From: a virus
Lineage: Duplodnaviria > Caudoviricetes
Direction: 5' to 3' (one strand)
Virus record (IMG/VR): IMGVR_UViG_3300020434_000055
DNA: 64,000 nucleotides
Of this stretch, positions 1-44,658 are shown one piece after another. The notes beneath the pieces were generated by a model. That model was not told where the DNA came from, did not search any database, and worked only from the letters and a program-made list of their open reading frames with translations. The translations under genes and the position numbers were made by a program. Numbering within the stretch: position 1 is the first letter of the stretch; each line of letters starts with the position of its first letter.

Positions 1-24
1 AGCAGGAGCATAAATATCGTTACA

Positions 25-264
25 ATGATATTACGAGAGCTATTCTATTTTGATAAAGATTCTTTACAACCTGTAGATCAAAAAAACTACGAGGCGGGTG
101 ATGATGATTCTATATTAGATATAGATGATACTAGAAAAACTAGACTAACTCTTAAACAAATCAACAAAGCACGAAGAGCCGGTGAGTTTCATAAAGAAGA
201 ACAAGAGAAAGAATTAGATTTTGTTAGAACAATGTACGGCGCGGCAAATCAACCAGAGATGTAA
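25..264 (+). CDS. Hypothetical phage protein, late-gene context
   Basis: 79-aa ORF preceded by TAAATA (11-16); no recognisable family. Confidence 0.6.
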   Translation: MILRELFYFDKDSLQPVDQKNYEAGDDDSILDIDDTRKTRLTLKQINKARRAGEFHKEEQEKELDFVRTMYGAANQPEM

Positions 265-267
265 TCA

Positions 268-858
268 ATGTCCATTGCTTTTGTATTAGGCAATGGTATG
301 AGTCGGAAGGTAATTCCGCTAGAACCTTTGCGTGAAATAGGTAAACTCTACGGTTGTAATGCAATCTATCGAAATTTTACTCCTGACTATCTTATTGCAG
401 TAGATTCTAAAATGGTGTTTGAAATCTGCGAAAAAGACATTCATCATAAAATAGAAACCTGGACTAATCCTAATAGATCATATAAACGATTCCAAAAATT
501 AAATTTCTTTTCACCTAGCTTAGGTTGGAGCTCTGGACCTACTGCTCTTGGACTGGCTAGTAAGCATGGTCATAAGGTAATTTATATCCTAGGCTTTGAT
601 TTCCACGGATCTCCTAGTGGTAAAATGAATAACATATACGCAGATAGTAAAAATTATAAAAAGAGTTCAGACGTAGCAACATATCACGGAAATTGGAACA
701 GGCAAACTTGTATAACTTTACAAAAAAATCCGTCCAAAGAGTATATTAGAGTGGTCAGTGATAGAACATTAGAAGATTTTAAAACAAAAGATCTCGAAAA
801 ATTTGCAAATTATCGAGAAATAACTGTCTCCAAGTTTAAAGAAAAGTACCATCTGTAA
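268..858 (+). CDS. MptE-like / MAF (DUF115)-like Rossmann protein, possibly glycosyltransferase-related
   Basis: Motifs AFVLGNGMSR, YGCNAIY, DYLIAVD, SSGPTALGLA and IYILGFD resemble the DUF115/MptE/CstII-like fold. Confidence 0.45.
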   Translation: MSIAFVLGNGMSRKVIPLEPLREIGKLYGCNAIYRNFTPDYLIAVDSKMVFEICEKDIHHKIETWTNPNRSYKRFQKLNFFSPSLGWSSGPTALGLASKHGHKVIYILGFDFHGSPSGKMNNIYADSKNYKKSSDVATYHGNWNRQTCITLQKNPSKEYIRVVSDRTLEDFKTKDLEKFANYREITVSKFKEKYHL

Positions 859-17730: not shown

Positions 17731-20322
17731 ATGACAAAACAGATAATACAAGATGGTATAATACCTAATGACGGTCAAGGTGACAGTCTTAGAACAGGTG
17801 CACAGAAAATAAACACAAATTTTGATGAGTTATATACTGCACTAGGAAATGGTAGTGCTTTAACTTCTATTTCAGATAATTTATTTAATTCAACAGGTTC
17901 TAACAAGATTGCGTTTCACTTTGATACGCTAGGAGATTTACCAGATGCCACAACCTATCACGGAATGTTCGCCCATGTACATAGTGAAGGTACAGGTTAT
18001 ATGTCTCATGCAGGAGCCTGGGTTAAACTCGTAGATGCAAATAAATCTATTGATGCTTTAGCAGATGTTAATACAACTAACACTACACCAACAGATGGAC
18101 AAGCATTACTTTGGGATAACGCAAATAGTTATTGGAAACCAGGTGACGTACAAGCATCAGGTGGTGGAACTTTTGTTTCATTATCAGATAGTCCTTCTAC
18201 TTTTTCTGGAGCAAATAATAAATTTGTAACAGTTAATAGTGGAGCAAGTGCTATAGAATTTACAACTCCAGTTATTGATAAAATTGGAGATGTAGATACA
18301 ACTACAACACCTCCAACAGCTGGTCAAGTATTAAAATGGAATGGATCTAATTGGGTTCCGGCTCAAGATTCTACATCAGGTGGAAGTGGATCAGACGCTG
18401 ACACATTAGATGGTTTAGATAGTCCATATTTTTTAGATTATAATAATTTTACTAATAAACCAACATCTTTTGGTAAATCTTTTAACGTATCTGCCGCAAC
18501 ATATACAGCCGCGTCAGGTATAATGCAATTAACTATTGGAGCACACGATTTAGTAATTGGTGACAATATTAAAATTGCTCCATTAAGTTTAACATTTTCT
18601 TGCGACATGGATAATCATGCTACTAATACGCAATATCCAAGAGCAACTGGAAGTGCCGCACCTGGTGGAATGGATTATGTATATAATAAACCAGTTGCAA
18701 TTACGGGTGCAGATGCAACAACAATTACAATGAATGTTGGAACTGGAAATCTTAAATCTTTTACTCCAACAGCCGCAATATACACACCAGCAACAGGTGT
18801 AATGGAATTAACTATTGGTACACACAATTACATAGCTGGTAACAAAGTTAGTATTACTACAGAAAGTTTAACTTTCACTTGCGCCTTAGATGGTCATTCA
18901 TCACAAAAAGCATATCCAAGAGCAACAGGTTCAGCCGCTCCAGGTGGAGCTGACTATGCCTACGAAACACTACAAACTCTTACATCAGTAAGTGCAACAA
19001 CAATTACAATGAATGTTGGAATATCAAGTAATACATCTGCACATACATTTGTAAGTGCTTCTGCTGGTGCTATAACAAGTTCAAATATTCATACATTTAT
19101 AAGTGCTACTTCTAATTGTATAACATTTGCAAAAAGATTTACAGAGTTATCAGATGCTCCATCTAGTTTTAGTGGATATGGAGATTATTATCTTAAAGTA
19201 AACACTGGTGGAACAGCTTTAGAACTTGTAACAAAACCTGGCGGAGCAACTAATTTATCAGGACTTTCTGATATAACAACATTAGGAAATTATTACAATA
19301 CATCAAATGCAGTATATACACCTGCGACAGGAGTAATAGTATTAACTATTGGACAACACAATTTACAAGTTGGTCACAATGTAAAAATTGCTTCAAACAG
19401 TTTAACATTTACTTGTGCAATGGATAGTAATGCAACAGAACATACATATCCAAGAGGAAGTGGATCAGCATATGCAGGTGGAAAAGATCCTGCTTATACT
19501 TCAGCAAGTACAATTACGGCAATAACTGCAGATTCAATTACTGTAAATGTTGGAATATCAAGTAATACAACAACACACACATTTATAAGATCTACTGAAA
19601 ATAATATATCAGTAGTTGATCAATCTTACAGTACATCAAATGCAACATATACACCTAACACAGGACAATTGCAATTAACTATCGGAAACCATGCCATACA
19701 GGCTGGACATTCTGTTATGATTGCCGCAAATAGTTTAACATTTACCTGCGCCTTAGATAGTAATACTACACAATCAACTTATCCAAGAGCAACTGGATCA
19801 GCGGCACCAGGTGGAATGGACTATGCTTACGAAAGACCTGTATTAATTACAGCCGTAAGTGCGACAACAATTACAATGAATTGTGGTGTATCAAGTAATA
19901 CATCAGCACATACATTTGTAAGTGCTGTTGCAAATAATATAAAAGTTGCACCAACACAAGGTGATTCATTGTACTTCAATGGAGTATCATGGTTAAGAAG
20001 AAACGGACCAGTATCAAGATATGAAATAATAAATGACAGTAGCAATAACTTTACTTGGACAGGACCTGGTTTAACATCAGCAACTAATGATCCAGTAATG
20101 TATATGAACAGAGGTCATACATATTATTTGATTAATCAAGCAGGAAGTTCTCATCCTTTAGAAATAAGAACTAGTAATGGTGGTAGTGGATATACATCAG
20201 GAGTAACAGGTAGTCAATCAGGTACACAAATATTTGAAGTACCAATGGATGCACCTGCTACATTGTATTACCAATGCACAATTCATTCTGCAATGGGTAA
20301 CACAATTAACATATTGAGTTAA
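17731..20322 (+). CDS. Tail fibre with T4 gp9/gp10-like N-terminus, four YPRATG domains and cupredoxin-like C-terminus
   Basis: NDGQGDSLRTGAQKINTNFDELY baseplate-attachment motif; four repeat domains; HPL...YYQCTIHSAM. Confidence 0.75.
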   Translation: MTKQIIQDGIIPNDGQGDSLRTGAQKINTNFDELYTALGNGSALTSISDNLFNSTGSNKIAFHFDTLGDLPDATTYHGMFAHVHSEGTGYMSHAGAWVKLVDANKSIDALADVNTTNTTPTDGQALLWDNANSYWKPGDVQASGGGTFVSLSDSPSTFSGANNKFVTVNSGASAIEFTTPVIDKIGDVDTTTTPPTAGQVLKWNGSNWVPAQDSTSGGSGSDADTLDGLDSPYFLDYNNFTNKPTSFGKSFNVSAATYTAASGIMQLTIGAHDLVIGDNIKIAPLSLTFSCDMDNHATNTQYPRATGSAAPGGMDYVYNKPVAITGADATTITMNVGTGNLKSFTPTAAIYTPATGVMELTIGTHNYIAGNKVSITTESLTFTCALDGHSSQKAYPRATGSAAPGGADYAYETLQTLTSVSATTITMNVGISSNTSAHTFVSASAGAITSSNIHTFISATSNCITFAKRFTELSDAPSSFSGYGDYYLKVNTGGTALELVTKPGGATNLSGLSDITTLGNYYNTSNAVYTPATGVIVLTIGQHNLQVGHNVKIASNSLTFTCAMDSNATEHTYPRGSGSAYAGGKDPAYTSASTITAITADSITVNVGISSNTTTHTFIRSTENNISVVDQSYSTSNATYTPNTGQLQLTIGNHAIQAGHSVMIAANSLTFTCALDSNTTQSTYPRATGSAAPGGMDYAYERPVLITAVSATTITMNCGVSSNTSAHTFVSAVANNIKVAPTQGDSLYFNGVSWLRRNGPVSRYEIINDSSNNFTWTGPGLTSATNDPVMYMNRGHTYYLINQAGSSHPLEIRTSNGGSGYTSGVTGSQSGTQIFEVPMDAPATLYYQCTIHSAMGNTINILS
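18481..19125 (+). repeat. YPRATG domain pair, one copy nested inside the other
   Basis: TATCCAAGAGCAAC cores at 18634 and 18913; order A1-B1-[A2-B2-C2]-C1. Confidence 0.85.
19291..19950 (+). repeat. YPRATG domain pair, tandem
   Basis: Cores at 19447 and 19780; each copy complete. Confidence 0.85.
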
Positions 20323-20711: not shown

Positions 20712-23700
20712 ATGGCAGATTTCAAAATAGATAGGATACGATTTAGATGGAGAGGTGACTGGGTAGCAGGTACTTCTTACATTAAAGATGATATCGTTAG
20801 ATATGGTGCAAAAATATTTGTCTCTATCGAAATGCATACAGCAGATGCTAACTTTTATAATGATTTAGATAATATAGTTCCAAGATGGTCACAAATGATG
20901 GATGGTCAAAGTTGGACTGGTAATTGGAAAACAAGTAATTTTTATAAAGTAGGTGAAGTAGCAAAAGTTGGAGCGGCAGTTTATAAATGTATAGAAGGTC
21001 ACTTATCAAATGCAAGTGAAGCCAATGGATTATTAGGTGATGAAAATAAATGGGTTTACTTTGCAAGAGGTGAAAAATGGACATCTTTATGGCAACCTAA
21101 TACACTTTATAACGTTGGTGAAACAATTGTTTATGGTGGATCAGTTTGGAAATGTATAACATCACATACTTCTTCAACTACAGCCGCAGGTATAGAATAT
21201 CATCAAGCCAATTGGGTTCAATATCATAGATCAGATTTTTACAGAGGTTATTGGGCACCAAATATAAGATATTATCCAGATGATATAGTAAGAAATGGTG
21301 GAGTAATTTACAGAGCTGTAACAGGACATACAAGTGCCGCAGTAGATTATTGGAACGATTTAGATAGTACAGATTATACAACAAATTCATCAAGTGGTTC
21401 TGGTGCAGTTATAAATGTTTTCAGAGTTGGCACAACTTATTATGTAAAATTTACAAATGCAGGAGTAAACTTTGCGGCGGCAGAAACTATTTCTATAGTA
21501 GGTAGTAAAATTGGTGGAGCCGATGGTACAAATGATTTATCAATCACTATTAATACAGTAAACAGTGGAGCAATAGCAACGACATCTGCAAATGGTACTG
21601 CTGTTTCAGGTAGTGCAGGTTTAGAAGCCGATCAAGCAAAATGGGAAATAGTTCTTGATGGTATTGAATATGAAGATGATTGGGCATACGGAAAAAAATA
21701 TAATAAAGGTGCTCTTGTATCTTGGAGTCCGGGAATTTGGCAAGTAACTACTAGTCACTGGTCAATAACGGATTACATGAATGAAGCTAATTTTTCATTA
21801 TGGGTTCCAGGTGCAGAATACGAAGGAACTTACTCTACTACACAATATTATCAAAAAGGTGACGTTGTACATTATGGTGGTTATAGTTATGTTGCTTTAG
21901 TAAGCAATACAAATATTATTCCAGGGGTTACAGATAGTACAAATACTTGGGAATTAATTCAAACAGGTTATAATTTTAGAAGCGAATGGAATAGTTCAAC
22001 TGCATATAAAACAGGAGATGTAGTTAGAGCAGGTGGTAACTTATTCATAGCAGTACAAGATAGTACTGGAGCAGATCCTGATACAACTTTTATCTATGAT
22101 CCAGGTAGTGATGCTCCTGATCCTTGGCAATTATTAGTAACTGGTAAAGCATTTAAAGGTTCTTGGAAAGAAAGTGATTCCAACGGAGCAATTACTTACT
22201 TTGTAGGTGATGTAGTTACAGTAGCAGGAACAGTATACGCTTGTATTAAAACACATGAGTCATCATCATCTGATTCTAAACCAACTTTAGATGAAGAAAG
22301 TGAAAATGTCGGTCCTTATTGGGTAATGATAGCCAAAGGTAATGAACCAGGCGCTTTAGTACTTGAACAAATAGGTGACGTAAAAAGTTTTGATACAGAA
22401 AAAACAAGAATAGGTTTAGGAACAGTAGGACAATTATTTAAAGGCAATGCAACTGGTGATTATCCAATATGGGGTGATCATGATGTAATAAAAAATGTAT
22501 TTTTTGTTTCACCTTATGGAACAGACACTCCTACTAGTGGTAAAAGTGTTGCAGGACCTTTTAAAACAATCAAATATGCTTGTGATTTTGTAGCGGCAGA
22601 TTTAGCCGAACGAACACCATGTACTATAGCAATTAAAACTGGTGTATATGAAGAAATATTACCTATTACGGTCCCAAGAGATACACACATTTGGGGAGAT
22701 TTTACAAGACGTGGTGTGAACGTTAGACCTAAAGCAGGTTATACAACAACAGATATGTGGCGTGTAAACAATGCCTGTGGTATTGCAAATATGACAATGC
22801 AAGGAAAAACAGGTGGATTAACTGCCGCAAATGAATATGGAACAAAAAGAACAACAGGTGGAGCATATGTAACTTTAGATCCAGGTAGTGGACCTGCAGA
22901 TACAAGTGTTCATATTTTAACAAAATCACCTTACATTAAAAACTGTTCAATATTTGGAACAGGATGTACTGGATTAAAAGTAGACGGAGACTTACACGAT
23001 GGTGGTCTCAAATCTTTTGTTGCTAATGATACTACACACTTTATTGAAAATGGAATTGGCGCTCATGTTAATGGAGATGCTAGAGTAGAATTTGTTTCAG
23101 TATTTGCCTATTACGCCCACATAGGATATTTGGCAACAGGCGGTGGAAAATTTAGAGCAACAAATGGAAATTCATCTTATGGTGATTTTGGTTGTGTTGC
23201 AGAAGGACAGTTAGCGGCAGAAACTCCAACAACTGGAAAAATTAATAACCAATCACAAGAAGCACAGGTAGATGCAGTTTATAATGATGAAAATGAAATA
23301 TTTGCTTTTGCATATGATCACGCAGGACAAAATTATTCATCAGCAACAATTAATATTTTCGGTTCAGGAGAAGGAGCCGCGGCAACATTAGGTTACGATC
23401 AAATTAGAAATGGTGGAGTAGGTAAAGTAAGAATTAAAGGATTAGGTGATTCATCTACAGCTGGTGGTTCAAATTATACTAGTGAAATAGCACCTTCACA
23501 AGGTGGTGATGCAACATCAATTAAATTAGCACAACAATACGAAGGTACGCCAGCCGAAACTGTAGGACAAAGAATTTATATATGGGAAGGTACAGGTAGA
23601 GGTCAGTATGGATATGTTCATACTTACGACTCAGGTACAAAAGTTGCAACTATTAAAAGAGAATTTGATGATACAGATGGTTGGCAACACGTGATGGGTG

Positions 23701-26700
23701 GTTTCCCTATTGAAACTTTACTTAATGCATCTACAAAATATTCTATAGAACCTAGAATTACATTTACAGATGGACCTTATAATAAATCTACTCCTTCTTT
23801 TGGAACTACAGGAGAAATGTTAGTATCTGCATCAGGAAGAGTTGGAGCATCTGATGTTACAGTATTACTTGGTAATGGTAAAGGAAATAGAACAACAGAT
23901 GGTTCAAACTGGACTGCTGTTAGTGGAGTTCCTTTAGCTGACTGGATCGGAATGACTAGAACAGAAAATTATTTTATAGCAGTAGCACAAGATGGAACAA
24001 CTGCTAGATCCGCCGACGGTGCAACATGGACTAATATCACAACAAGTCAATATAGTACAACAGGAGGAACATATACACCATCTACAGGAGAATTAGTATT
24101 AGAAATTGGAGCACATGAAGTAGGTCAGACTTATAGTACAACAAGTGCAACATATACACCAGCAACAGGTGTAATGGAATTAGGTATAGAAAAACATACT
24201 CCTGGAGCACAATTTACTCCATCAGCCGCAACATACACTCCGGCAACAGGAGTATTAGAATTAACTATAGGATCACATAGTTTAGTAGCAGGTAATAAAG
24301 TTAAAATTGCTCCAAATAGTTTAACATTTACTTGCGCCTTAGACAGTCACGCTACTGAAAAAACATATCCAAGAGCAACTGGAAGTGCCGCACCAGGCGG
24401 AGTAGATTATTTCTACGAAAAAGCAATAACTCTTACGTCAGTAGGTGCAACAACAATTACAATGAACGTTGGTGATACTAGTATATCAGGCAATAACTCA
24501 ACACACACATTTGTAAGTGCTACTTCTAATTCTGTAACAGAACAAGTTATTGGAGCACACAATTTACATATTGGTAATGAAGTTAAGATTGCACCAACAA
24601 GTTTATCTTTTACTTGTTCTTTTGATGATCATACTGCTCAAACAGCCTATCCAAGAGCAACTGGATCTGACGCACCGGGTGGTTACGATTATTATTATTA
24701 TAGCCCAGTAGAAATTACAGCCACAACAGCATCAACAATTACAATGAATGTTGGTAAAGGAAATATTAAAAATTATACTGTAACAGACGCGGCTTATACA
24801 CCAGCAACAGGAGTAGTAATATTAACTATTGGTGATCATAATTTAGTAGCTGGTAATCATATTGACATTGCTCCATTAAGTTTAACATTTACTTGTGCCC
24901 AAGATAGTCATGCAACAGAACATAGCTATCCAAGAGCAACAGGTTCAGCCGCTCCAGGTGGTTATGATTATTTTTATAATAAACAAATAGAAATTATTTC
25001 AGCAGGTGCAACAACAATTACTGTAAATGTTGGAATATCAAGTAATACAACAGCACATACATTTATAAGTGCTCTTGCTGACGGTGTATCAAATTCAAAT
25101 ACACATACATTTGTAACTGCTCTTGCAAATAATATAACATTAGCAGGTCAATTTGTTATGATTGCTCCAAACAGTTTAGGTTTTACTTGTTCTTTTGATA
25201 ATAATGTATCAACTCATACATATCCAAGAGCAACAGGATCAGCGGCGCCAGGTGGAATGGATTATTTTTACGATACACCAGTTGAAATTCAAAGCAGAAC
25301 AGCAACAACAATTACAATGAATGTTGGAAAAGGAAATATTAAAAGTTACACTCCAACAGCCGCAGTATATACACCTGCATCAGGAGTAATGGTATTAACC
25401 ATTGGAGCACATAGTTTAATAGCTGGTAATTATGTTGATATTGCTACAGACAGTTTAACATTTACTTGCGATCAAGATAGTCATGGTAGTAATCATACAT
25501 ATCCAAGAGCAACTGGAAGTGCCGCACCTGGTGGTTATGATTATTATTACGAAAAACCAATAAGAGTTGAGTCAGTAGGTGCAACAACAATTACTCTAAA
25601 TGTTGGTATATCAAGTAATACAACAGATCACTTATTTGTAAGTGCGACTGCTGATTGTGTAACAAATTCAAATGCACACACATATGTAAGTGCTACTGCG
25701 AATAATGTATCTTATTATTCTGTTCCTGTTGATGTAATGTCAGGTATTGCATATCGTAATGGAACTGTAATAATTGCATCAGAAACAGGAATGGTTTATA
25801 AATCAACTGATGACGGTTCTAGTTTCTCAGCTGATCAATTAGAAGTTTATGATGGTTCAACATCGATATTCACATATATTGCCGCTGGAAATGGATTATG
25901 GATAGCAGGTAATGGAACTGGAAAAACTTATGAAAGTCAAGATGAAGGAACAACTTGGTCATTAGGTTCTAATATTGGAGACAAATTAATGGATATTAAC
26001 GGTGTTCTTAAATCTGTTCACAGATATGATGTAACATCATTAATATTTGGTGGTGGTAAATTTGTAGCAACAGTAATAGACGCTCCAGGAGATGAAAGTA
26101 CAGTTATTAGTAAATTTATGATATCAAATGCTACAGGACAAGTTGGAGCTTCTGAACAAACAGCTACAAGATGGACAGAAAGTGAAACACCTCCACACGC
26201 AGGACCTTACATTGGAGTTGCATATACTGAAGGTACATATGTTGCAATATCGGCCGGTGGAGATCTTGCTTACAGTTATGACGCTTGGTCTTGGAAAATA
26301 TTAGATTCTGCATTAACAGGAACGTTTTCAAGTATAGGTAGTGGTAAAGCTGGCGGTGGACATTTTGTTCCTTTACAAACTGGTAGTACCGGTACAACAT
26401 ATTTGTTAAGAAAAGGTTCAAGACCTTTAGCAAGAGCAATTACAAGTTCTCAAGTAATTACAAAATTACAAATTTTATCTCCAGGTAGTGGATATTCAAC
26501 TGCACCAGCAGTTACAATAACTGACAATAAAGCTACAACTGATGCAAGTCTTGAAGCAAGAATATTTGATGGAGTATTAGGTCAACCAGAATTTTCAAAT
26601 AGAGGTTCAGGATTTATGAATGTATCTGCAACATTAACAGGAGATGGTTTTGCAGATGAATATCAAATTGGTCCTTATCTTCAAGTAAAAGATATGAACG

Positions 26701-27533
26701 GAAAACCAGGACCAGGTGCAATTTTATATATAAATGGACTTGAAGATCAAGTTTATAGAATAACTCAGGTTAATAATGTAACAGGAAATTCTCCTAACAT
26801 TGCCGCTCAGTTTAGAATAACACCTAGACTAAATGCAAATGAATCTCCTGATCATGAAACAACAATAGAAATAAGAGAAAGATACAGTCAAGTTAGAATA
26901 ACTGGTCATGATTTCTTAGATATTGGAACAGGTAATAAATCTACAACTAATTATCCAGGTTTATACACTAGTGGTTATACACCAGGTTATGAACGTAAAC
27001 AACAAAATGAAACTGTATCAAATGGAGGAGGTAGAGTATTTTATACTTCTACTGACCAAGATGGAAATTATAGAGTTGGAGAATTATTTGAAGTAGAACA
27101 ATCTACAGGAATAGTAACATTAAACGCAGATTTATTTGACTTATCAGGTTTAACAGAAATTACCTTAGGTGCAGGTGGAGTTGGTGGTACTGATGTTAAA
27201 ATTAATGAATTTAGTACAGATCCAACGTTGAAGAAAAATTCAAATAGTGTGATACCTACACAAAAAGCAATTGCTACATTCGTTGGCTCTAGAGTTTCTG
27301 GAGGAGGTGCAAATCTTATTACTAATGAAGTTAGAGCAGGACAAATAAAATTTGCTAATGATCAAATATTTAATGAAGCATTTCCGGCGGCTGGACAAGT
27401 TGTATTTGCCGCTACAGTAAATATTTCAAATGTTTCTGGGCCTATGTTAGCACAATCATACTTTTTTGGCTCTAATGTTAGAGATAGCTGGGATGAAGGT
27501 GGAGTAGAACGGGACACATTGTATGGAAATTAA
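20712..27533 (+). CDS. Giant tail fibre/spike: CBM5/12-like W-Y repeats, beta-helix, BNR/Asp-box propeller, five nested YPRATG domains
   Basis: W...T.Y..GD.V..GG..Y.C...HTS repeats; Asp-boxes (SADGATW, STDDGSSF, SQDEGTTW); paralogue of 27582. Confidence 0.75.
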   Translation: MADFKIDRIRFRWRGDWVAGTSYIKDDIVRYGAKIFVSIEMHTADANFYNDLDNIVPRWSQMMDGQSWTGNWKTSNFYKVGEVAKVGAAVYKCIEGHLSNASEANGLLGDENKWVYFARGEKWTSLWQPNTLYNVGETIVYGGSVWKCITSHTSSTTAAGIEYHQANWVQYHRSDFYRGYWAPNIRYYPDDIVRNGGVIYRAVTGHTSAAVDYWNDLDSTDYTTNSSSGSGAVINVFRVGTTYYVKFTNAGVNFAAAETISIVGSKIGGADGTNDLSITINTVNSGAIATTSANGTAVSGSAGLEADQAKWEIVLDGIEYEDDWAYGKKYNKGALVSWSPGIWQVTTSHWSITDYMNEANFSLWVPGAEYEGTYSTTQYYQKGDVVHYGGYSYVALVSNTNIIPGVTDSTNTWELIQTGYNFRSEWNSSTAYKTGDVVRAGGNLFIAVQDSTGADPDTTFIYDPGSDAPDPWQLLVTGKAFKGSWKESDSNGAITYFVGDVVTVAGTVYACIKTHESSSSDSKPTLDEESENVGPYWVMIAKGNEPGALVLEQIGDVKSFDTEKTRIGLGTVGQLFKGNATGDYPIWGDHDVIKNVFFVSPYGTDTPTSGKSVAGPFKTIKYACDFVAADLAERTPCTIAIKTGVYEEILPITVPRDTHIWGDFTRRGVNVRPKAGYTTTDMWRVNNACGIANMTMQGKTGGLTAANEYGTKRTTGGAYVTLDPGSGPADTSVHILTKSPYIKNCSIFGTGCTGLKVDGDLHDGGLKSFVANDTTHFIENGIGAHVNGDARVEFVSVFAYYAHIGYLATGGGKFRATNGNSSYGDFGCVAEGQLAAETPTTGKINNQSQEAQVDAVYNDENEIFAFAYDHAGQNYSSATINIFGSGEGAAATLGYDQIRNGGVGKVRIKGLGDSSTAGGSNYTSEIAPSQGGDATSIKLAQQYEGTPAETVGQRIYIWEGTGRGQYGYVHTYDSGTKVATIKREFDDTDGWQHVMGGFPIETLLNASTKYSIEPRITFTDGPYNKSTPSFGTTGEMLVSASGRVGASDVTVLLGNGKGNRTTDGSNWTAVSGVPLADWIGMTRTENYFIAVAQDGTTARSADGATWTNITTSQYSTTGGTYTPSTGELVLEIGAHEVGQTYSTTSATYTPATGVMELGIEKHTPGAQFTPSAATYTPATGVLELTIGSHSLVAGNKVKIAPNSLTFTCALDSHATEKTYPRATGSAAPGGVDYFYEKAITLTSVGATTITMNVGDTSISGNNSTHTFVSATSNSVTEQVIGAHNLHIGNEVKIAPTSLSFTCSFDDHTAQTAYPRATGSDAPGGYDYYYYSPVEITATTASTITMNVGKGNIKNYTVTDAAYTPATGVVILTIGDHNLVAGNHIDIAPLSLTFTCAQDSHATEHSYPRATGSAAPGGYDYFYNKQIEIISAGATTITVNVGISSNTTAHTFISALADGVSNSNTHTFVTALANNITLAGQFVMIAPNSLGFTCSFDNNVSTHTYPRATGSAAPGGMDYFYDTPVEIQSRTATTITMNVGKGNIKSYTPTAAVYTPASGVMVLTIGAHSLIAGNYVDIATDSLTFTCDQDSHGSNHTYPRATGSAAPGGYDYYYEKPIRVESVGATTITLNVGISSNTTDHLFVSATADCVTNSNAHTYVSATANNVSYYSVPVDVMSGIAYRNGTVIIASETGMVYKSTDDGSSFSADQLEVYDGSTSIFTYIAAGNGLWIAGNGTGKTYESQDEGTTWSLGSNIGDKLMDINGVLKSVHRYDVTSLIFGGGKFVATVIDAPGDESTVISKFMISNATGQVGASEQTATRWTESETPPHAGPYIGVAYTEGTYVAISAGGDLAYSYDAWSWKILDSALTGTFSSIGSGKAGGGHFVPLQTGSTGTTYLLRKGSRPLARAITSSQVITKLQILSPGSGYSTAPAVTITDNKATTDASLEARIFDGVLGQPEFSNRGSGFMNVSATLTGDGFADEYQIGPYLQVKDMNGKPGPGAILYINGLEDQVYRITQVNNVTGNSPNIAAQFRITPRLNANESPDHETTIEIRERYSQVRITGHDFLDIGTGNKSTTNYPGLYTSGYTPGYERKQQNETVSNGGGRVFYTSTDQDGNYRVGELFEVEQSTGIVTLNADLFDLSGLTEITLGAGGVGGTDVKINEFSTDPTLKKNSNSVIPTQKAIATFVGSRVSGGGANLITNEVRAGQIKFANDQIFNEAFPAAGQVVFAATVNISNVSGPMLAQSYFFGSNVRDSWDEGGVERDTLYGN
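24051..25712 (+). repeat. Five YPRATG domains, nested
   Basis: Cores at 24366, 24648, 24927, 25221 and 25500. Confidence 0.85.
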
Positions 27534-30500: not shown

Positions 30501-33500
30501 TACATTAATTCTAGACTTGCAAAAGGTTCTAGTGCAAATGATATGTTCTATGTTAGAAATGCTTCAGGAATAAGAAATGTAACAGTAGAAGGTTTAATAG
30601 GAACATTAGGTACTACTCAATTCTCTACAACAGCGGCAACATACACACCAGCAACAGGTGTAATGGAATTAACTATTGGATCACATAGTATTGCTGTTGG
30701 TGAAAAAGTAATGATTGCTTCAAATAGTTTAATCTTTACTTGCGATCAAGATACTCACGCTACTCAACATAGCTATCCAAGAGCAACTGATCCTTATTAC
30801 AATAAAGAAATTTTAGTTACAGGTGCGACAGCGACTACAATTACAATGAATGTTGGAATATCAAGTAATACAACAGGACATACATTTGTAATGGCTACTG
30901 AAGATAATGTAACATTAGCTACTGCAAATGAATATGGAACAAAAAGACCAACAGGTGGAGCATATGTATCATTAGATCCAGGTTGGGGACCAGCACATGA
31001 AGAAGTATGGATTAAGTCTAAATCACCTTATATCCAAAATGTAACAACTTGGGGAGAAGGTTGTGTTGGAGTAAAAGTAGACGGTGCATTACACGATGGT
31101 GGTTTTGATTCTATCGTTGGAAATGACTTTACACAATTATGCGATAATGGTATTGGTGCTTGGATTACAAATTTAGGTAGAGTAGAACTTGTATCAGTAT
31201 TTTCTTATTATGCACACATAGGTTACCTTTGTGAAAATGGTGGAAAACTTCGTTCTACAAACGGAAATTCATCTTATGGTGATTTTGGTTGTGTTGCAGA
31301 AGGAACAGATGCAAGTGAAACTCCAATAACAGCAACAATAGATAATAGAAGTACAGATGCAGTTATTGACAATGTTATAACAGATGCTAATCAAATATTA
31401 GCATTTGAATATGATAATGCAGGTAGACAATATAGTAATGCAACATTTACTATATCTGGACCTGGTTATGGAATTGCTGGAACAACTCCAACTTATAATA
31501 CTGGTGGTGTTTACAAAATTAGATTAATAGAAACTAATCAAGAAGTAAGTGATCAAGGTGGATCAACTTACATGACTGCACTTAATACTGGACAAACAGG
31601 TGACACTACATCAATTACTATAGCTAACGCAGATAGTAATGCCTCAGGGGCTTATCCTGGAATGGCAATATGGATTGTAGAAGGAAAAGGTGTAGGACAA
31701 TATGCATATATTAATACTTACAATGCAACAAGTAAAGTTGCAACTGTTAAAAAATATTCAAATGCCGCAGACGGTTGGGAAAGACTTGGCGGTTTAGCGG
31801 TAGAGGCAACATTAGACAATACAACAAAATATAGTATTGAACCGAGAGTAGTTATTGCGGCTCCTCAAGATGATGGAAGTACAGCAGTTAGACAAGCAGT
31901 TGCAAGAGCAGTTGTTACAACAGAAAAAATTTCCAAAGTAAAAATTATAGATTGCGGAGCAAGTTATACTTCAGCACCTACTGTAACATTTACTGATCCT
32001 AACAATACTACAGATGCTCCAGTACAATCATACATAGATGATGGTGTATTAGGACAACCAACTTTCTCTGCAAGAGGAATTGACTTTGAAACTGCAAGTG
32101 CAACAGTATCTGACGCAGGAAGCGAAAAAGTTATTACAGGTATTTCACAAGCAAATCCAATGGAAGTTACAGCCGTAGCTCATAATTTTGTTGATGGTCA
32201 AAAAGTTGTATTTTCTGATATAGTTGGTATGACAGAATTAAATTCTGGTGTATATTTTTATATTAGATCTACAAGTGTAGATACATTTGCAGTTTACATT
32301 GACTTTGATTTAAATAATGGATTAGATTCAACTAATTTCACAGCATACGTTTCAGGTGGTAAAGCAACAAGCTTCGGTGGATTTAGAGATGAATATCAAT
32401 TTGGAAGATATCTTCAAGTAGAAGGATTAACAAAAGTACCTCAAGCAGGTTCTAATATAGAATTTGATGGCATTGGTTCTACAACATATCCTTATGCATA
32501 TGATGTTCTAACTTCAAATAAAGAATTTTTAAAAGATGAAGTTGTTTCTTGGTTTGATAATACTGGTTATCCAGGTGTTCATTCTCAAGCAGAATTAGAT
32601 AAGTGCGAAAGAGACGTAGGATATGAAATAGATGCGTTAGCACATGATTTAAAATTTGGCGGTAATACAGAAACAGTTAGGGTAGCAAAATTTTATTGGA
32701 TTGGAACTAATACACAACTAGGCGTAGGTGAACAAGCCTATGCAGTTGCAGTTAATAATAAATTAAAAGAAATAATTAATGGTTATATTCTTACTAATAC
32801 TGGTTGGTCAACAGAACAAACTCCAGTTGTTACTACTCAAACTACAACTGCATTTAATGGAGAAACTGGTACAATAGATAAAATTACAACATTAATTACA
32901 AACTTTAATGATGTTATTGAAAATGGTTTAACATCATTACCAGCTACAATAGGATTAAATAATCCTTACTACAAAATAGTAAGTGTTAAAAATCAAGCAG
33001 GATCACAAGCTCCTTATTCAGCACTATTACAAATTAGTCCACAATTAAGTGTAGCACAATCACAAGAGCATGGTTCTCAAGTGACAATGAAATTTAGATA
33101 CAGTCAAGTTAGATTGACTGGTCATGACTTTTTGGATGTTGGTACTGGTGACACAGCTAACACCAATTATCCTGGAACACCTTTAAATGATCCAGATTCA
33201 GCTAATGAAGCCGTTGGAAGAGGTGGAGGTAGAGTATTCTTCTCCGCAACTGATCAAGACGGTAACTTTAAAGTTGGAGAATTATTCTCAGTACAACAAG
33301 CAACAGGTATTGCTACGTTGAATGCTGATGCATTTAATATTTCAGGATTACAAGAGCTTCAGTTAGGAGATCAAACATTAGGAGGCACTAGTGCCGCTAT
33401 TAATGAATTCTCCACTGACGGGACAATGGCGGCTAATAGTGATTCCATTGTACCAACACAACGGGCAATAAGAACTTATATCGCTTCACAAATTGGTGGT

Positions 33501-42468: not shown

Positions 42469-44658
42469 ATGGCAGTAAATTATAAACCTTTAGAATCGCA
42501 ATATGGTTATAAATCCCCAGGATTTGTTGTAGATGATACGGGTAATGTAACAGTAAGAACTGTAACCAGCACATATATTCCAACACCAGCTGAATCCGTA
42601 AATTTCATAGTTTCTGAAGATGCAAGTCAATTTACTATGGTGGCACCTTCAGCCGCATCTTATACTCCAACAGCCGCATCATATACACCTTCAACAGGAG
42701 TAATGGTATTAACTATTGGAACACATACTTTACAAGCTGGTAATAAAATTAAAATTGCCCCTAATAGTTTAACATTTACTTGTAACATGGACGGTCACGC
42801 TACTGAAAAAACATATCCAAGGGCAACTGGATCAGCCGCACCTGGTGGAGTAGATTATTTCTATGATAAAGAAATAACACTTACTGGTAGAACAGAAACA
42901 ACAATTACAATGAACGTTGGTGATACTAGTATATCAGGTAACAATCATCCACATACGTTTGTAAGAGCTACTGCTGATTGTGTAACTAATGAGTCTTTAG
43001 GAACTAATCCACTTCTTTCTTTAGAAAGAGGACAAAGTTATGTTTTTAAACTTAATGAATTAAGTTCTTTAACATTTAATACATTTTCACCTGACGGTAA
43101 TAATCCTTTAGTTCCAGGAAATCTTTTTAATGATGGTTTAAAACACGTTACAACTATTACAGGAAATACACTTGTATCTGGTACTTTAACATTTGCTCAA
43201 TCTTGGCAACAAGAAACAGATTATAATAGATCTGTATCTATAGTTGTACCTGATACTGCAAATACTCCTTTACAAGGAAAACAAATACCTGTAGTTATAA
43301 GTTTGCATAATACAAATAAAACAATGGGGAATGGTATTGCAAACATTACATATATGACAGACAAAATTTTAATTGCTCCTCAAGGTTATAATAATGAATG
43401 GAATGTTGGTTATCAAACTAGTAAAGCAAATGATATTGCATTTCTTGATAGCATTATAGAAGAATTAGAAAAGTATGACAATGTAGATACTACAGCTATT
43501 ACAATAGTAGGTAAAGGTAATGGCGGACAGTTAGCACATCAATATGGTTTACAAACAACAAAAACAAATGTTACAAACATAGTAATTGAGTCAGCATTAT
43601 TTCACGAAGATCAATACAGAAAAGATACTAATACGTTTTATGGAATGAATTTAACAAATTTAGGAGATTCAACAGTTGTATCTTGGTCGGCTGTATCAGT
43701 TTTACCTAAAAATATTTTAATGTTTCACGGTGAGGTAGATTTAGTTTTTCCTTATAATGGTGGAACTGTAAGTGGTCAAACTTTTACTAACGCAGAAGAT
43801 ACTATATATGGTTGGGCAAAAGCAAATAATACAGCTGAAGCACAATTAAGCAACTCTGGTGTTACACAATCAGATGGGTCAAACTTATTCTCATATAATT
43901 CTGGTGATGTTCAAATGTATGGATTTCCTAATATAGCACAAAATTGGGACGCATTTCTAACATCAGTTCAAGCAAAAATAAATGCTTTAGCAACACCTAA
44001 TTCTTATTTGAATATTCCAGTAATTACAGATACTACTGAAGGTGATGCACAAGGAAAAGCAACAGGACTTACAACGTGGGAAGTTCCAGTAGATGCTCCA
44101 GATGTATTATTTTATGGAAATAGTAATCGAAATCCTTATGGATCAGTTGCTATTACTAACCCAACTCTTGTAGGAATAGGATCTTTTAGTTCTATTCTTA
44201 ATACAGGAAATTTCTTTAGTTCAGGTGAAGATGCAATTATAACAATGAGTCCAACAGGTACTGGTACTGTAACTATTTCTCCAGCAGGTGGTGGATTTGT
44301 AAACAATGTAAATGTTAATGCAACTAATTTAACAGTAGGTGGAGAAGTAACTATAACACCTAATGAAGATGTAACTATAAGCCCACAAGTAAATGGTACG
44401 TTAGCAATGAACCCTTTATCAAGAGGTGAAATGAATAATATGAATATAGGAGGTTCTATAGCAGGAGATGGGTCTTTTTCTAGTTTAGTTTCTAGCGGAG
44501 GAACGTTAAATAACACTACAATTGGTGTAACTACACCTGCAAATGCTGGGTTCTTAACTGCTACGGCGGAAAACGTTCCGACAGATAAAAAGGACTTAGG
44601 TAATAAAGCGTATATTGATAATACCTCAATGGTATATTCAATTGCATTAGGAGTATAA
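42469..44658 (+). CDS. Tail protein with one YPRATG domain and a degenerate alpha/beta-hydrolase domain
   Basis: Repeat at about 42661-42990; LIAPQG..W, DIAFL, IVGKGNGG, FHGEVDLVFPYNGG; ends YSIALGV. Confidence 0.65.
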   Translation: MAVNYKPLESQYGYKSPGFVVDDTGNVTVRTVTSTYIPTPAESVNFIVSEDASQFTMVAPSAASYTPTAASYTPSTGVMVLTIGTHTLQAGNKIKIAPNSLTFTCNMDGHATEKTYPRATGSAAPGGVDYFYDKEITLTGRTETTITMNVGDTSISGNNHPHTFVRATADCVTNESLGTNPLLSLERGQSYVFKLNELSSLTFNTFSPDGNNPLVPGNLFNDGLKHVTTITGNTLVSGTLTFAQSWQQETDYNRSVSIVVPDTANTPLQGKQIPVVISLHNTNKTMGNGIANITYMTDKILIAPQGYNNEWNVGYQTSKANDIAFLDSIIEELEKYDNVDTTAITIVGKGNGGQLAHQYGLQTTKTNVTNIVIESALFHEDQYRKDTNTFYGMNLTNLGDSTVVSWSAVSVLPKNILMFHGEVDLVFPYNGGTVSGQTFTNAEDTIYGWAKANNTAEAQLSNSGVTQSDGSNLFSYNSGDVQMYGFPNIAQNWDAFLTSVQAKINALATPNSYLNIPVITDTTEGDAQGKATGLTTWEVPVDAPDVLFYGNSNRNPYGSVAITNPTLVGIGSFSSILNTGNFFSSGEDAIITMSPTGTGTVTISPAGGGFVNNVNVNATNLTVGGEVTITPNEDVTISPQVNGTLAMNPLSRGEMNNMNIGGSIAGDGSFSSLVSSGGTLNNTTIGVTTPANAGFLTATAENVPTDKKDLGNKAYIDNTSMVYSIALGV
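42661..42990 (+). repeat. Single YPRATG domain
   Basis: Core at 42814; closely similar at DNA level to the copy at 24366. Confidence 0.85.

What the first reader, a model, noticed from the sequence alone, without database searches (positions are those of the whole stretch)
24051..25712. Russian-doll tail fibre: a ~93-aa domain recursively inserted into copies of itself, forming a branched tree
Seen: the domain has three parts, A (YTPATGVMELTIG.H), B (G..VKIAP.SLTFTC..D.H....YPRATGSAAPGG.DY.Y...I...ATTITMNVG) and C (HTFVSA..N.V). In ORF 20712 the order is A1 A2 [A3 B3 C3] B2 [A4 B4 C4] C2 B1 [A5 B5 C5] C1, which parses like balanced parentheses. Domain 1 carries domains 2 and 5 in two loops, and domain 2 carries 3 and 4 in the same two loops. 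This is not a tandem array. Inference: the protein folds into a dendrimer-like, multivalent head grown by insertion at two permissive loops. I do not know of a described phage fibre with recursive self-insertion of this depth.
Basis: partly seen in the sequence, partly recalled or inferred. Interest (0 to 1): 0.88.

Follow-up and report, generated by a model that had tools for sequence, protein, structure and literature searches.

The report
Self-nested beta-barrels in a phage fibre
A giant tail-fibre-like protein of a marine T4-like phage holds five copies of one small beta-barrel, two of them split open by other copies sitting in their loops; this nesting turns out to be common, and apparently undescribed, across a family of ocean cyanophage virion proteins.

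Summary
In ORF 20712..27533 (2273 aa), a profile of the intact ~94-aa domain finds three whole copies plus fragments. The fragments' profile coordinates join up only as A1(A2[D3]B2[D4]C2)B1[D5]C1.

Predictions support folding across the gaps. The inner host with its two guests models at pLDDT 86 and pTM 0.58, with the orphan hairpin at 90. The outer orphan hairpin A1 docks only on B1 and C1 residues (ipSAE 0.67, best control 0.01).

The fold is a six-stranded barrel like the E1 FCCH domain and the glycan-binding barrel of phage endosialidases, which are themselves insertion domains.

Nesting is family-wide. Three loops accept guests, closed nests reach depth 10, and cultured Prochlorococcus phage P-SSM4 gp7 has one. 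The barrel also sits in a non-barrel domain of ORF 27582, where the ORF 20712 paralogue is unbroken.

At DNA level this nest looks like two flanking tandem duplications (81 nt and 573 nt).

It is not unique in kind: cyanobacterial RNA polymerase Si3 is a solved recursive self-insertion. The "multivalent head" function is untested.

An overlapping window's first-stage reader in this scan noted the same stretch.

The parts
20712..27533 (+). ORF 20712, 2273-aa tail-fibre-like virion protein (P0001). It has N-terminal CBM_5_12-like repeats, a fibre/beta-helix part, Asp-box-like flanks around the barrel nest, and a C-terminal part shared with ORF 27582.
   Evidence: Pfam CBM_5_12 E 4.6e-29 with 5 stretches; PHROG tail fiber phrog_9851 E 3e-162; neighbouring genes are baseplate wedge and gp10-like connector
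24069..24122 (+). A1: orphan N-terminal beta-hairpin of the outermost barrel D1 (aa 1120-1137). It ends at the near-invariant His.
   Evidence: profile 2-19; 19.0 bits with the A sub-profile; docks on B1+C1 only, ipSAE 0.67 against a best control of 0.01
24147..24200 (+). A2: orphan hairpin of the inner host barrel D2 (aa 1146-1163).
   Evidence: profile 1-18; 18.7 bits; pLDDT about 90 and modelled as a hairpin in the D2 model
24228..24539 (+). D3: intact barrel (aa 1173-1276), guest in loop 1 of D2.
   Evidence: full-length profile hit, E 5e-35; matches the E1 FCCH and FAD-binding barrels, Z 5-7.3
24543..24764 (+). B2: core of host barrel D2 (aa 1278-1351). It is followed by a 'KGNIK' linker and a short extra strand that leads into D4.
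   Evidence: profile 12-78, E 6e-19; pLDDT 65-92
24789..25088 (+). D4: intact barrel (aa 1360-1459), guest in loop 3 of D2.
   Evidence: full-length profile hit, E 3e-35; phi92 endosialidase barrel Z 7.6, rmsd 2.0, 76 aligned; E1 FCCH Z 7.4
25089..25139 (+). C2: orphan closing strands of D2 (aa 1460-1476), carrying the invariant His-x-Phe.
   Evidence: 10.8 bits with the C sub-profile; pLDDT about 82 although the alignment does not cover it
25140..25346 (+). B1: core of the outermost barrel D1 (aa 1477-1545) plus the linker.
   Evidence: profile 10-78, E 5.5e-17; 63% identical to B2, its nearest relative in the window; residues 1488-1491, 1515-1516 and 1529-1543 touch A1 in the docking model
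25362..25664 (+). D5: intact barrel (aa 1551-1651), guest in loop 3 of D1.
   Evidence: full-length profile hit, E 1e-35; phi92 endosialidase barrel Z 7.6; no D5 residue lies in the A1 interface
25662..25709 (+). C1: orphan closing strands of D1 (aa 1651-1666).
   Evidence: 10.0 bits; residues 1654-1656, 1658 and 1661-1668 touch A1 in the docking model
23892..24032 (+). Upstream flank with two Asp-box-like motifs (aa 1061-1068 and 1100-1107): a possible propeller blade just before the nest.
   Evidence: motif scan; weak DUF6242 match, E 0.012, below threshold
25803..25958 (+). Downstream flank with two Asp-box motifs (aa 1698-1705 and 1742-1749): a possible continuation of the same propeller.
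   Evidence: weak DUF6242 (E 0.0056) and BNR (E 0.017) matches; nearest Atlas clusters carry DUF6242_C, score 0.98
18496..19941 (+). The same barrel family in the gp10-like connector ORF 17731: one host (AB at 18496-18750, C at 19072-19125) with a guest (18775-19077), then two intact copies (19309-19608 and 19642-19941).
   Evidence: phrog_677, E 2e-75
30609..30914 (+). One barrel inserted into a non-barrel domain of ORF 27582 (aa 1010-1111). The paralogous site in ORF 20712 (Leu703/Thr704) is unbroken. The 8-nt word AACATTAG lies at both edges.
42676..42987 (+). Single intact barrel in ORF 42469 (aa 70-173), 81% identical to D3 in the core.

Best explanation
The stretch encodes five copies of a ~94-residue six-stranded beta-barrel of the E1-FCCH / endosialidase-barrel type, wired as a rooted tree. 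The chain makes the first hairpin of barrel D1 and leaves it right after a near-invariant His. It then does the same for D2, makes the whole of D3, returns to build the D2 core, makes the whole of D4, closes D2, builds the D1 core, makes the whole of D5, and closes D1.

This works because the two ends of such a barrel lie side by side, so a whole barrel, or a whole sub-tree, can hang from a surface loop without disturbing its host. The family tolerates guests in three loops, after profile positions of about 18, 52 and 78. This protein uses the first and third.

Shown: the sequence grammar, its recurrence in relatives, and predicted folding of both split barrels.

Inferred:
- The nest arose by duplicating an already split host-plus-guest unit (573 nt) and the A hairpin unit (81 nt).
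- The cluster hangs from a loop of an Asp-box propeller, as the single barrel does in endosialidases.
- The barrels are lectin-like modules that add avidity or breadth for host surface glycans without changing the length or register of the fibre (about 45% likely).
- The invariant His (A), Cys (B) and His (C) form a metal site that ties the three segments together (about 30% likely).
For: Grammar:
- Fragment coordinates in the domain profile join up (A ends at 18-19, B runs about 10-78, C runs 78-93) and parse as balanced brackets.

Family:
- In 122 homologues, 296 continuation fragments resume where the innermost open host stopped, against 183 +/- 10 (maximum 214) after shuffling the order.
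- Single-guest forms are frequent: A-F-BC 43, Ab-F-b2C 63, AB-F-C 21.
- Closed nest depth per protein is 1:19, 2:73, 3:15, 4:8, 5:6, 10:1.
- 63 of 149 independent 50%-cluster representatives hold at least one closed split.
- P-SSM4 gp7 aa 4619-5763 is nested.
- Orphan fragments keep the invariants: G8 127/127, C36 139/139, H83 189/189.

Folding:
- The D2 model has pLDDT 86.2 and pTM 0.58, with A2 at about 90 and C2 at about 82.
- A BFVD viral model superposes on the whole D2 model: TM 0.62, 349 columns, E 4e-33.
- Single-barrel PDB chains align across model residues 1..342/343: 6geh_A Z 5.2 with 89 aligned; 1hze_A Z 5.0 with 76 aligned.
- A1 docks on B1-D5-C1 with ipSAE 0.65-0.68 against a best control of 0.01. 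It touches only B1 and C1 residues, including both conserved His. That mark was reached by 58 of 80 solved complexes and 2 of 110 mismatched pairs; these counts hold only roughly, because my own alignments were used.

Fold identity:
- phi92 endosialidase barrel Z 7.6; E1 FCCH Z 7.4, 7.1 and 6.3.
- E1_FCCH is above Pfam's threshold in homologue P0007.

Function lead:
- The K1F endosialidase barrel is a polysialic-acid binding site and a host-discrimination hotspot (PMC12632334).

Origin:
- The two B-guest-C units are 68% identical over 189 aa with no gaps.
- There are 81-nt tandem A units and a 300-nt repeat that crosses the host-guest junction.
Against: - All 3-D evidence is predicted. No coordinates could be inspected, so packing is inferred from confidence values, aligned ranges and an interface list.
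- In the first whole-region model A1 was poorly modelled (pLDDT 55-67), and no row showed D1 or D2 as a discontinuous barrel.
- Aligned ranges give only the first and last residue and can be stretched by stray residues, as the 238..560 rows probably were.
- The docking test cannot tell A1 from its homologue A2 as the partner of B1.
- The fold matches are middling (Z below 8), and the window's own copies hit no Pfam family even at E 10.
- No ligand, metal or receptor evidence exists.
- The parser leaves many fragments in divergent homologues unmatched (153) or open (367).
Confidence: 0.8

Rival explanations
1. The region is a linear string of beads made by tandem duplication of sub-domain pieces: three A hairpins, then two 191-aa B-guest-C units. 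Each incomplete barrel is completed by whatever strands lie nearest in sequence (strand swapping or circular permutation), not by the distant nested partner.
For: - The DNA does show tandem units: 81-nt A units at 71-76% identity, and a 573-nt unit at 68% aa identity with no gaps.
- B2 is preceded by a second partial copy of the A strand, so its profile hit starts at position 12.
- Short 'YTPxAA' pseudo-strands precede each guest.
Against: - The order cannot be cut into whole permuted units.
- In homologues the types of break close in mirror order, for example (2 (3 (1 (2 F 2) 1) 3) 2) in P0006.
- The D2 model places A2 and C2 with high confidence.
- A1 docks on B1 and C1, not on D5.
Confidence: 0.08
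2. The orphan A and C pieces are decaying leftovers of duplication that now serve only as linkers, and B1 and B2 are degenerate or partly unfolded.
For: - A1 was modelled with low confidence in the whole-region model.
- A2 has Glu-Lys where intact copies have Gly-x before the His.
Against: - Orphan pieces across the family keep the same invariant residues as intact domains: G8 127/127, H83 189/189, F85 183/189, C36 139/139. Part of this is selection by the profile itself.
- The numbers of A, B and C pieces balance exactly here.
- pLDDT is 90 for A2.
- The docking score is far above the controls.
Confidence: 0.06
3. The nest is real, but the barrels are structural: spacers, stabilisers or a shield on the baseplate or fibre, not receptor- or glycan-binding modules.
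For: - No binding residues or ligands are known.
- The most conserved residues (Tyr, Gly, His, Cys, Pro, His, Phe) look like fold or metal residues rather than a variable binding pocket.
- Structural matches to this barrel type include parts of phage virions not known to bind receptors: the FCWL1 head-to-tail interface, a tail tube and lambda gpJ.
Against: - The nearest solved phage analogue, the endosialidase barrel, binds glycan and tunes host range (PMC12632334).
- Copy number and nesting vary quickly between relatives, as expected for host-range parts.
- The protein also carries five CBM_5_12-like repeats.
Confidence: 0.35
4. The layout is an assembly artefact of a repetitive metagenomic region.
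For: The region is repetitive, and the source looks like an environmental assembly (relatives are ENA, JGI and TARA records).
Against: - The repeats are only 61-80% identical in DNA, too diverged to be collapsed or mis-joined.
- The frame stays open for 2273 codons.
- An independent record holds a 99%-identical protein (P0003).
- A cultured, finished phage genome (P-SSM4) shows the same kind of nest.
Confidence: 0.02

Closest known systems
Si3 insertion of cyanobacterial RNA polymerase beta' (sandwich-barrel hybrid motifs, SBHM)
   Same: A small beta domain is inserted recursively into copies of itself. In the crystal structure, SBHM-2 to -5 are built from distant parts of the chain (PMC10895346). 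A survey of domain insertions describes a six-level recursive architecture with branching hosts in Prochlorococcus RpoC2 (PMC13114784).
   Different: - The fold is different: no RNAP chain appears among the top structural matches.
- The setting is different: an enzyme's trigger loop, not a virion fibre.
- Si3 is a fixed, conserved layout. Here copy number, depth and insertion loop vary widely between close relatives.
Beta-barrel domain of phage endosialidases (K1F, phi92; Pfam End_beta_barrel PF12195)
   Same: - It is the best structural match to the intact copies (4hiz_A residues 255-338, Z 7.6, rmsd 2.0-2.2).
- It is itself a guest domain looped out of a beta-propeller in a phage tail spike.
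- It binds glycan (PMC12632334).
- The nest here is flanked by Asp-box-like motifs.
   Different: - In endosialidases there is one barrel, not a nest.
- Sequence similarity is marginal: PF12195 hits 4 of 60 family members, best E 0.0076, and none of this window's copies.
- The invariant His/Cys/His set is specific to this family.
- The propeller host here is not proven.
E1 FCCH domain (first catalytic cysteine half-domain of ubiquitin-activating enzymes, Pfam PF16190)
   Same: - It is the same small barrel by structure: 4p22_B Z 7.4-7.5, 9mc4_A Z 7.1-7.3, 2v31 Z 6.2-6.3.
- It is likewise an inserted domain.
- PF16190 scores above its threshold in homologue P0007, on the hairpin/core junction motif.
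   Different: - There is no functional link to ubiquitin activation.
- The window's copies do not match PF16190.
- The Z values are in the range where only a common arrangement may be shared.
Giant virion proteins of cultured cyanomyoviruses (e.g. P-SSM4 gp7, 7312 aa; S-SSM7 'baseplate wedge initiator'; Syn30, ACG-2014 structural proteins)
   Same: - They carry the same barrel family. In the phage collection it occurs in 323 of 50,697 records, all Synechococcus, Prochlorococcus or marine phages.
- BFVD models of these proteins match the D2 model.
- P-SSM4 gp7 aa 4619-5763 is nested in the same way.
   Different: - The records annotate them only as structural, baseplate or fibre proteins.
- I found no paper in the searchable library that describes the nesting.
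- This phage's sheath is closest, at 42-48% identity, to jumbo phages rather than to cyanophages.

Membership tests
Nested (recursive) domain-insertion architecture | The host domain's sequence is interrupted, and it resumes at the same point of the domain after a whole guest domain. | tested here: met
   A ends at profile 18-19 and B starts at 10-12. B ends at 78 and C starts at 77-78. Complete copies lie between.
Nested (recursive) domain-insertion architecture | A guest is itself a host (depth of 2 or more), and guest and host belong to the same family. | tested here: met
   D2 is a guest of D1 and the host of D3 and D4. All five match one profile.
Nested (recursive) domain-insertion architecture | The separated pieces of the host fold together as one domain. 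| tested here: met
   Prediction only. D2 model: pLDDT 86, A2 at 90, C2 at 82; single-barrel chains align over 1..343; BFVD model TM 0.62. D1: A1 docks on B1+C1, ipSAE 0.67 against 0.01. No experimental structure exists.
Plain tandem-repeat array of whole domains | Head-to-tail complete units. | tested here: not met
   Only 3 of 5 copies are contiguous, and the piece order cannot be cut into whole or permuted units. Sub-units (81 nt and 573 nt) are tandem at DNA level.
E1_FCCH / endosialidase-type small beta-barrel (PF16190, PF12195) | Six-stranded barrel of about 80-95 residues that superposes on solved members. | tested here: inconclusive
   Z 7.6 (4hiz_A), 7.4 (4p22_B), 7.1-7.3 (9mc4_A) and 6.2-6.3 (2v31), with 75-80 aligned at rmsd 2.0-2.8. 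These are the top of the list but below the Z 8 the tool advises for trust. Foldseek found nothing at E <= 0.001.
E1_FCCH / endosialidase-type small beta-barrel (PF16190, PF12195) | Match to the Pfam model above its gathering score. | tested here: not met
   There are no Pfam hits at E <= 10 for four window copies. Among 60 family members, PF12195 hits 4 and PF16190 hits 2, all weak. Only the whole proteins P0007 (31.8 bits) and P0011 (35.5 bits) pass 29.5.
E1_FCCH / endosialidase-type small beta-barrel (PF16190, PF12195) | Occurs as a guest looped out of another domain. | tested here: met
   It is a guest in copies of itself (this locus). It is also a guest in a non-barrel domain of ORF 27582, where the ORF 20712 paralogue is unbroken.
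T4-like tail fibre / baseplate-attached virion protein | Homology to known fibre proteins and position in a baseplate/fibre gene block. | tested here: met
   phrog_9851 'tail fiber protein', E 3e-162. Neighbours are baseplate wedge (phrog_13163, E 5e-143), gp10-like connector (phrog_677) and tail sheath.
Endosialidase-like propeller carrying the barrel | Asp-box beta-propeller on both sides of the barrel insertion. | tested here: inconclusive
   Asp-box-like motifs lie at aa 1061, 1100, 1698 and 1742. DUF6242 and BNR matches are below threshold on both flanks. Atlas neighbours carry DUF6242_C. No fold was predicted for the flanks.
Metal-stapled fibre domain (as Zn in T4 gp12, Fe in T4 gp37; from general knowledge) | Conserved His/Cys ligands that meet in space and bind a metal. 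| not testable with these tools
   H17 0.96, C36 1.00 and H83 0.99 in 636 copies, one per segment. Both His lie in the A1/B1C1 interface. No geometry or metal data exist.

The most novel reading that the evidence does not exclude
This barrel family is a self-propagating plug-in module. Its ends meet and three loops at one (possibly metal-stapled) pole tolerate guests, so recombination can grow or prune branched clusters of binding domains at a single loop of a virion protein. That would give marine cyanophages a rapid way to tune valency and host range without changing fibre geometry. It would also be the deepest (10 levels or more) and most variable natural case of recursive self-insertion known.
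Probability: 0.3. Interest if true: 0.8.

Novelty: new variant of a known kind. Interest (0 to 1): 0.62.

Why it matters
- The giant structural proteins of ocean cyanophages, which make up a large share of their host-recognition genes, are built partly by a rule that standard domain annotation and aligners misread. MAFFT stacked the copies in every trial here.
- The family gives a second, far more variable natural system beside RNA polymerase Si3 for studying how recursively interrupted domains fold.
- It suggests a design principle for displaying several binding modules from one loop.
- If the barrels bind host glycans, their number and nesting would be a readable marker of host-range evolution in metagenomes.

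Tried and rejected
1. Mixed alignments of homologous segments for AF2 (A1 and several sandbox trials). MAFFT always piled the homologous copies onto one or two domains and paired A2 with B1, which would have biased the fold. I used only rows with the A-F-B(-next) layout (A2, A3).
2. Whole-region AF2 model: pLDDT 71, pTM 0.32. Its VIA rows with range 238..560 at first looked like a B1+C1 barrel. By comparison (same chains, same start as D4) they are more likely D4 plus a few stray C-terminal residues, so I do not use them as support.
3. Foldseek against the PDB with both models: nothing at E <= 0.001.
4. ESM Atlas shape search: TM <= 0.43, uninformative on packing.
5. Sequence searches of the PDB with the region, with the downstream flank and with a 60-member profile: only chance-level hits.
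6. Megablast of the gene against the phage collection: no match.
7. Literature searches for a prior description in phage fibres found none. Absence from this library is not proof of absence.
8. My bracket parser is heuristic. It first mis-parsed this very protein because C pieces abut neighbouring hits, and it still leaves 153 unmatched and 367 open fragments in divergent homologues.
Full report
**What is there**

ORF 20712..27533 encodes a 2273-aa protein. It sits in a T4-like baseplate/fibre block:
- Upstream are baseplate-wedge proteins and a gp10-like connector. Further downstream are the sheath genes.
- The protein itself matches PHROG tail-fibre families (phrog_9851, E 3e-162) and has five CBM_5_12-like repeats at its N-terminus.

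Simple motifs already show five A, five B and five C pieces between aa 1120 and 1666, in the order A A A B C B A B C C B A B C C.

I built a profile from the intact copies and refined it on 636 intact copies from relatives. It reports three full-length hits (D3 1173-1276, D4 1360-1459, D5 1551-1651) plus partial hits whose profile coordinates fit together:
- A1 covers profile 2-19 and A2 covers 1-18.
- B2 covers 12-78 and B1 covers 10-78.
- C2 and C1 cover about 78-93.

Dedicated A and C sub-profiles score the ten short pieces at 10-31 bits. The best background hit in the protein scores 2.3 bits. The only consistent reading is A1(A2[D3]B2[D4]C2)B1[D5]C1.

**Is it real as a fold?**

I had two AF2 runs and no access to coordinates.

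A first lesson was that ordinary multiple alignment cannot handle this layout. MAFFT stacked homologous copies and paired the wrong pieces. I therefore used only rows with the same A-F-B layout.

The whole region then modelled moderately (pLDDT 71, pTM 0.32). The uncovered A1 was weak.

D2 with its two guests (aa 1140-1482) modelled well: pLDDT 86.2 and pTM 0.58. The orphan hairpin A2 was at about 90. The orphan C2 was at about 82, although C2 had almost no alignment cover.

A structure aligner run against 48,161 PDB chains gave these results:
- It matched D3 and D4 separately to small six-stranded barrels.
- It aligned two single-barrel chains across the whole span 1..342/343 (6geh_A Z 5.2 with 89 residues; 1hze_A Z 5.0 with 76 residues at 3.7 A), as expected if A2+B2+C2 make a third barrel.
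- Ranges list only first and last residues, so this is suggestive rather than decisive. The similar-looking 238..560 rows of the whole-region model are probably D4 plus stray residues, and I discard them.

An independently predicted viral protein in BFVD superposes on the entire D2 model (TM 0.62 over 349 columns, E 4e-33).

For the outer barrel I ran a fragment test. The 33-residue A1 piece (aa 1112-1144) was set against the contiguous B1-D5-C1 piece (aa 1472-1672), each with its own alignment.
- A different predictor (ESMFold2) docked A1 with ipSAE 0.65-0.68 in three runs. The best control scored 0.01.
- The tool states that 58 of 80 solved complexes and 2 of 110 mismatched pairs reach this mark. 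It adds that the counts hold only roughly when one's own alignments are used.
- The confident contacts on the large piece are all in B1 (1488-1491, 1515-1516, 1529-1543) or C1 (1654-1668). None is in D5.
- This supports the claim that an orphan hairpin completes the B1/C1 barrel. It cannot distinguish A1 from its homologue A2.

**What the domain is**

The window's copies hit no Pfam family even at E 10 and no PDB sequence.

By shape the intact copies are closest to:
- the beta-barrel that is looped out of the propeller of phage phi92 endosialidase (4hiz_A 255-338, Z 7.6, rmsd 2.0-2.2);
- the FCCH domain of ubiquitin E1 enzymes (Z 7.4-7.5, 7.1-7.3 and 6.2-6.3);
- barrels in other phage virion parts (FCWL1, N4, lambda gpJ) and FAD-binding barrels.

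These Z values top the list but fall in the tool's 'middling' zone.

At sequence level the link is faint:
- E1_FCCH passes its threshold only in the whole homologues P0007 and P0011.
- End_beta_barrel and E1_FCCH touch 4 and 2 of 60 family members.

I therefore call it an FCCH/endosialidase-like barrel by fold, and a distinct sequence family. Both named relatives are themselves guest domains, which fits a fold whose ends meet. The endosialidase barrel binds polysialic acid and is a host-discrimination hotspot (PMC12632334). That is the basis for my inferred function.

**The phenomenon is family-wide**

A search of 5.8 billion proteins returned 477 relatives, almost all 1400-3968-aa proteins from marine metagenomes. 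An exhaustive profile search of 1.84 billion cluster representatives found 740 proteins. In the phage collection the domain occurs in 323 of 50,697 records, all Synechococcus, Prochlorococcus or marine phages.

In the 122 proteins studied:
- Guests sit in three loops, after profile positions of about 18, 52 and 78. Closed gaps number 103, 79 and 114 respectively.
- Single-guest forms are common.
- 296 continuation fragments resume exactly where the innermost open host stopped, against 183 +/- 10 after shuffling.
- Break types close in mirror order (P0006).
- Fully closed nests reach depth 3 in 15 proteins, 4 in 8, 5 in 6 and 10 in one.
- Gaps closed around guests that are themselves split number 14, 9 and 48 for the three loops.

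Cultured Prochlorococcus phage P-SSM4 carries such a nest in gp7, aa 4619-5763.

Orphan fragments keep the family's invariant residues. These are Tyr3, Gly8 and His17 in A; Cys36 and Pro48 in B; and His83 and Phe85 in C. One invariant potential metal ligand lies in each segment, and two insertion loops lie immediately after His17 and just before His83. Both His are in the A1 interface. A metal staple is an attractive idea, but it is untested.

**Elsewhere in the window**

- The gp10-like ORF 17731 has a host with one guest plus two intact copies.
- ORF 42469 has one copy.
- ORF 27582 has one copy inserted (aa 1010-1111) in a non-barrel domain. Its paralogue in ORF 20712 reads straight through at Leu703/Thr704, with 62% identity over the 190 aa that follow. 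The same 8-nt word lies at both edges. This confirms an earlier first-stage note (e1-5337696) and shows that the barrel behaves as a portable guest.

**How the nest arose**

- The two hosts D1 and D2 are each other's closest relatives (63% in the core). The leaves D3-D5 group with other intact copies.
- The units B2-linker-D4-C2 and B1-linker-D5-C1 align end to end at 68% identity without a gap. This is a 573-nt tandem unit that crosses the host-guest junction.
- A1, A2 and the start of D3 are 81-nt tandem units at 71-76% identity.
- So a host that already carried guests was extended by duplicating its right-hand part and its left-hand hairpin. That yields a proper nest without any literal insertion event. 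This is inference from similarity, not a dated history.

**Setting of the nest**

Asp-box-like motifs lie on both sides, at aa 1061, 1100, 1698 and 1742. Both flanks weakly resemble the same DUF6242 region and BNR, all below threshold. Atlas neighbours of the downstream flank carry DUF6242_C. The whole cluster may therefore hang from a propeller, as the endosialidase barrel does. I could not fold the flanks.

**Comparison and novelty**

Recursive self-insertion is known. The Si3 insertion of cyanobacterial RNA polymerase consists of eight SBHM domains, four of them discontinuous (crystal structure, PMC10895346). A 2026 survey of 48,551 insertion events calls it a six-level recursive architecture (PMC13114784).

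The present case differs in fold, setting, branching and above all variability. I found no description of it in five literature searches. I rate it a new variant of a known kind.

**Limits**

- All structural support is predicted.
- The function is inferred from an analogue.
- The same stretch was also noted by another first-stage reader of an overlapping window (e1-5337695).

Noticed in passing
window 30609-30914 (ORF 27582 aa 1010-1111) versus 22818-22823 (ORF 20712 aa 703-704): Filled versus empty site. One barrel sits inside a non-barrel (beta-helix-like) domain of ORF 27582, while the paralogous sequence in ORF 20712 is contiguous. The 8-nt word AACATTAG occurs at 30602-30609 and 30911-30918.
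   Followed up: yes
window 18496-19941 (ORF 17731): The gp10-like baseplate connector (phrog_677) also carries four copies of the barrel, one of them split by a guest in loop 3.
   Followed up: partly
L002 (Prochlorococcus phage P-SSM4, NC_006884.2 57144-79082), gp7 aa 4619-5763: A cultured, long-sequenced cyanophage has a 7312-aa 'gp7' with a deep nest of the same barrel that uses all three insertion loops. The record annotates it only as a virion structural protein.
   Followed up: partly
window 23892-24032 and 25803-25958: Asp-box-like motifs and weak DUF6242/BNR similarity lie on both sides of the nest. This suggests the whole cluster is itself a guest in a beta-propeller, as in endosialidases.
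   Followed up: partly
all barrel copies, e.g. window 24276-24278 (His1189), 24333-24335 (Cys1208), 24504-24506 (His1265): One near-invariant His, Cys and His in the A, B and C segments (0.96, 1.00 and 0.99 of 636 copies), plus a variable fourth His at profile position 41, 45 or 53. This is a possible metal site tying the three segments together. Two insertion loops flank these residues.
   Followed up: partly
window 24117-24146, 24198-24227, 24756-24788, 25338-25361: Each guest is preceded by a short degenerate copy of the first strand ('xYTPxAA'-like). In the models this strand is counted with the guest barrel as an extra N-terminal strand.
   Followed up: no
window 60319-63567: The 1082-aa tail sheath is most similar (42-48% identity) to sheaths of jumbo phages (Atu_ph07, Phosso, PA5oct) rather than to cyanomyoviruses. 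The baseplate wedge and the barrel family, in contrast, point to cyanophages. The phage's lineage and host are unsettled.
   Followed up: partly
window 20712-22200 (ORF 20712 aa 1-480): Five CBM_5_12-like repeats (Pfam E 4.6e-29) form the N-terminal part of the fibre protein. ORF 27582 starts with similar repeats.
   Followed up: no
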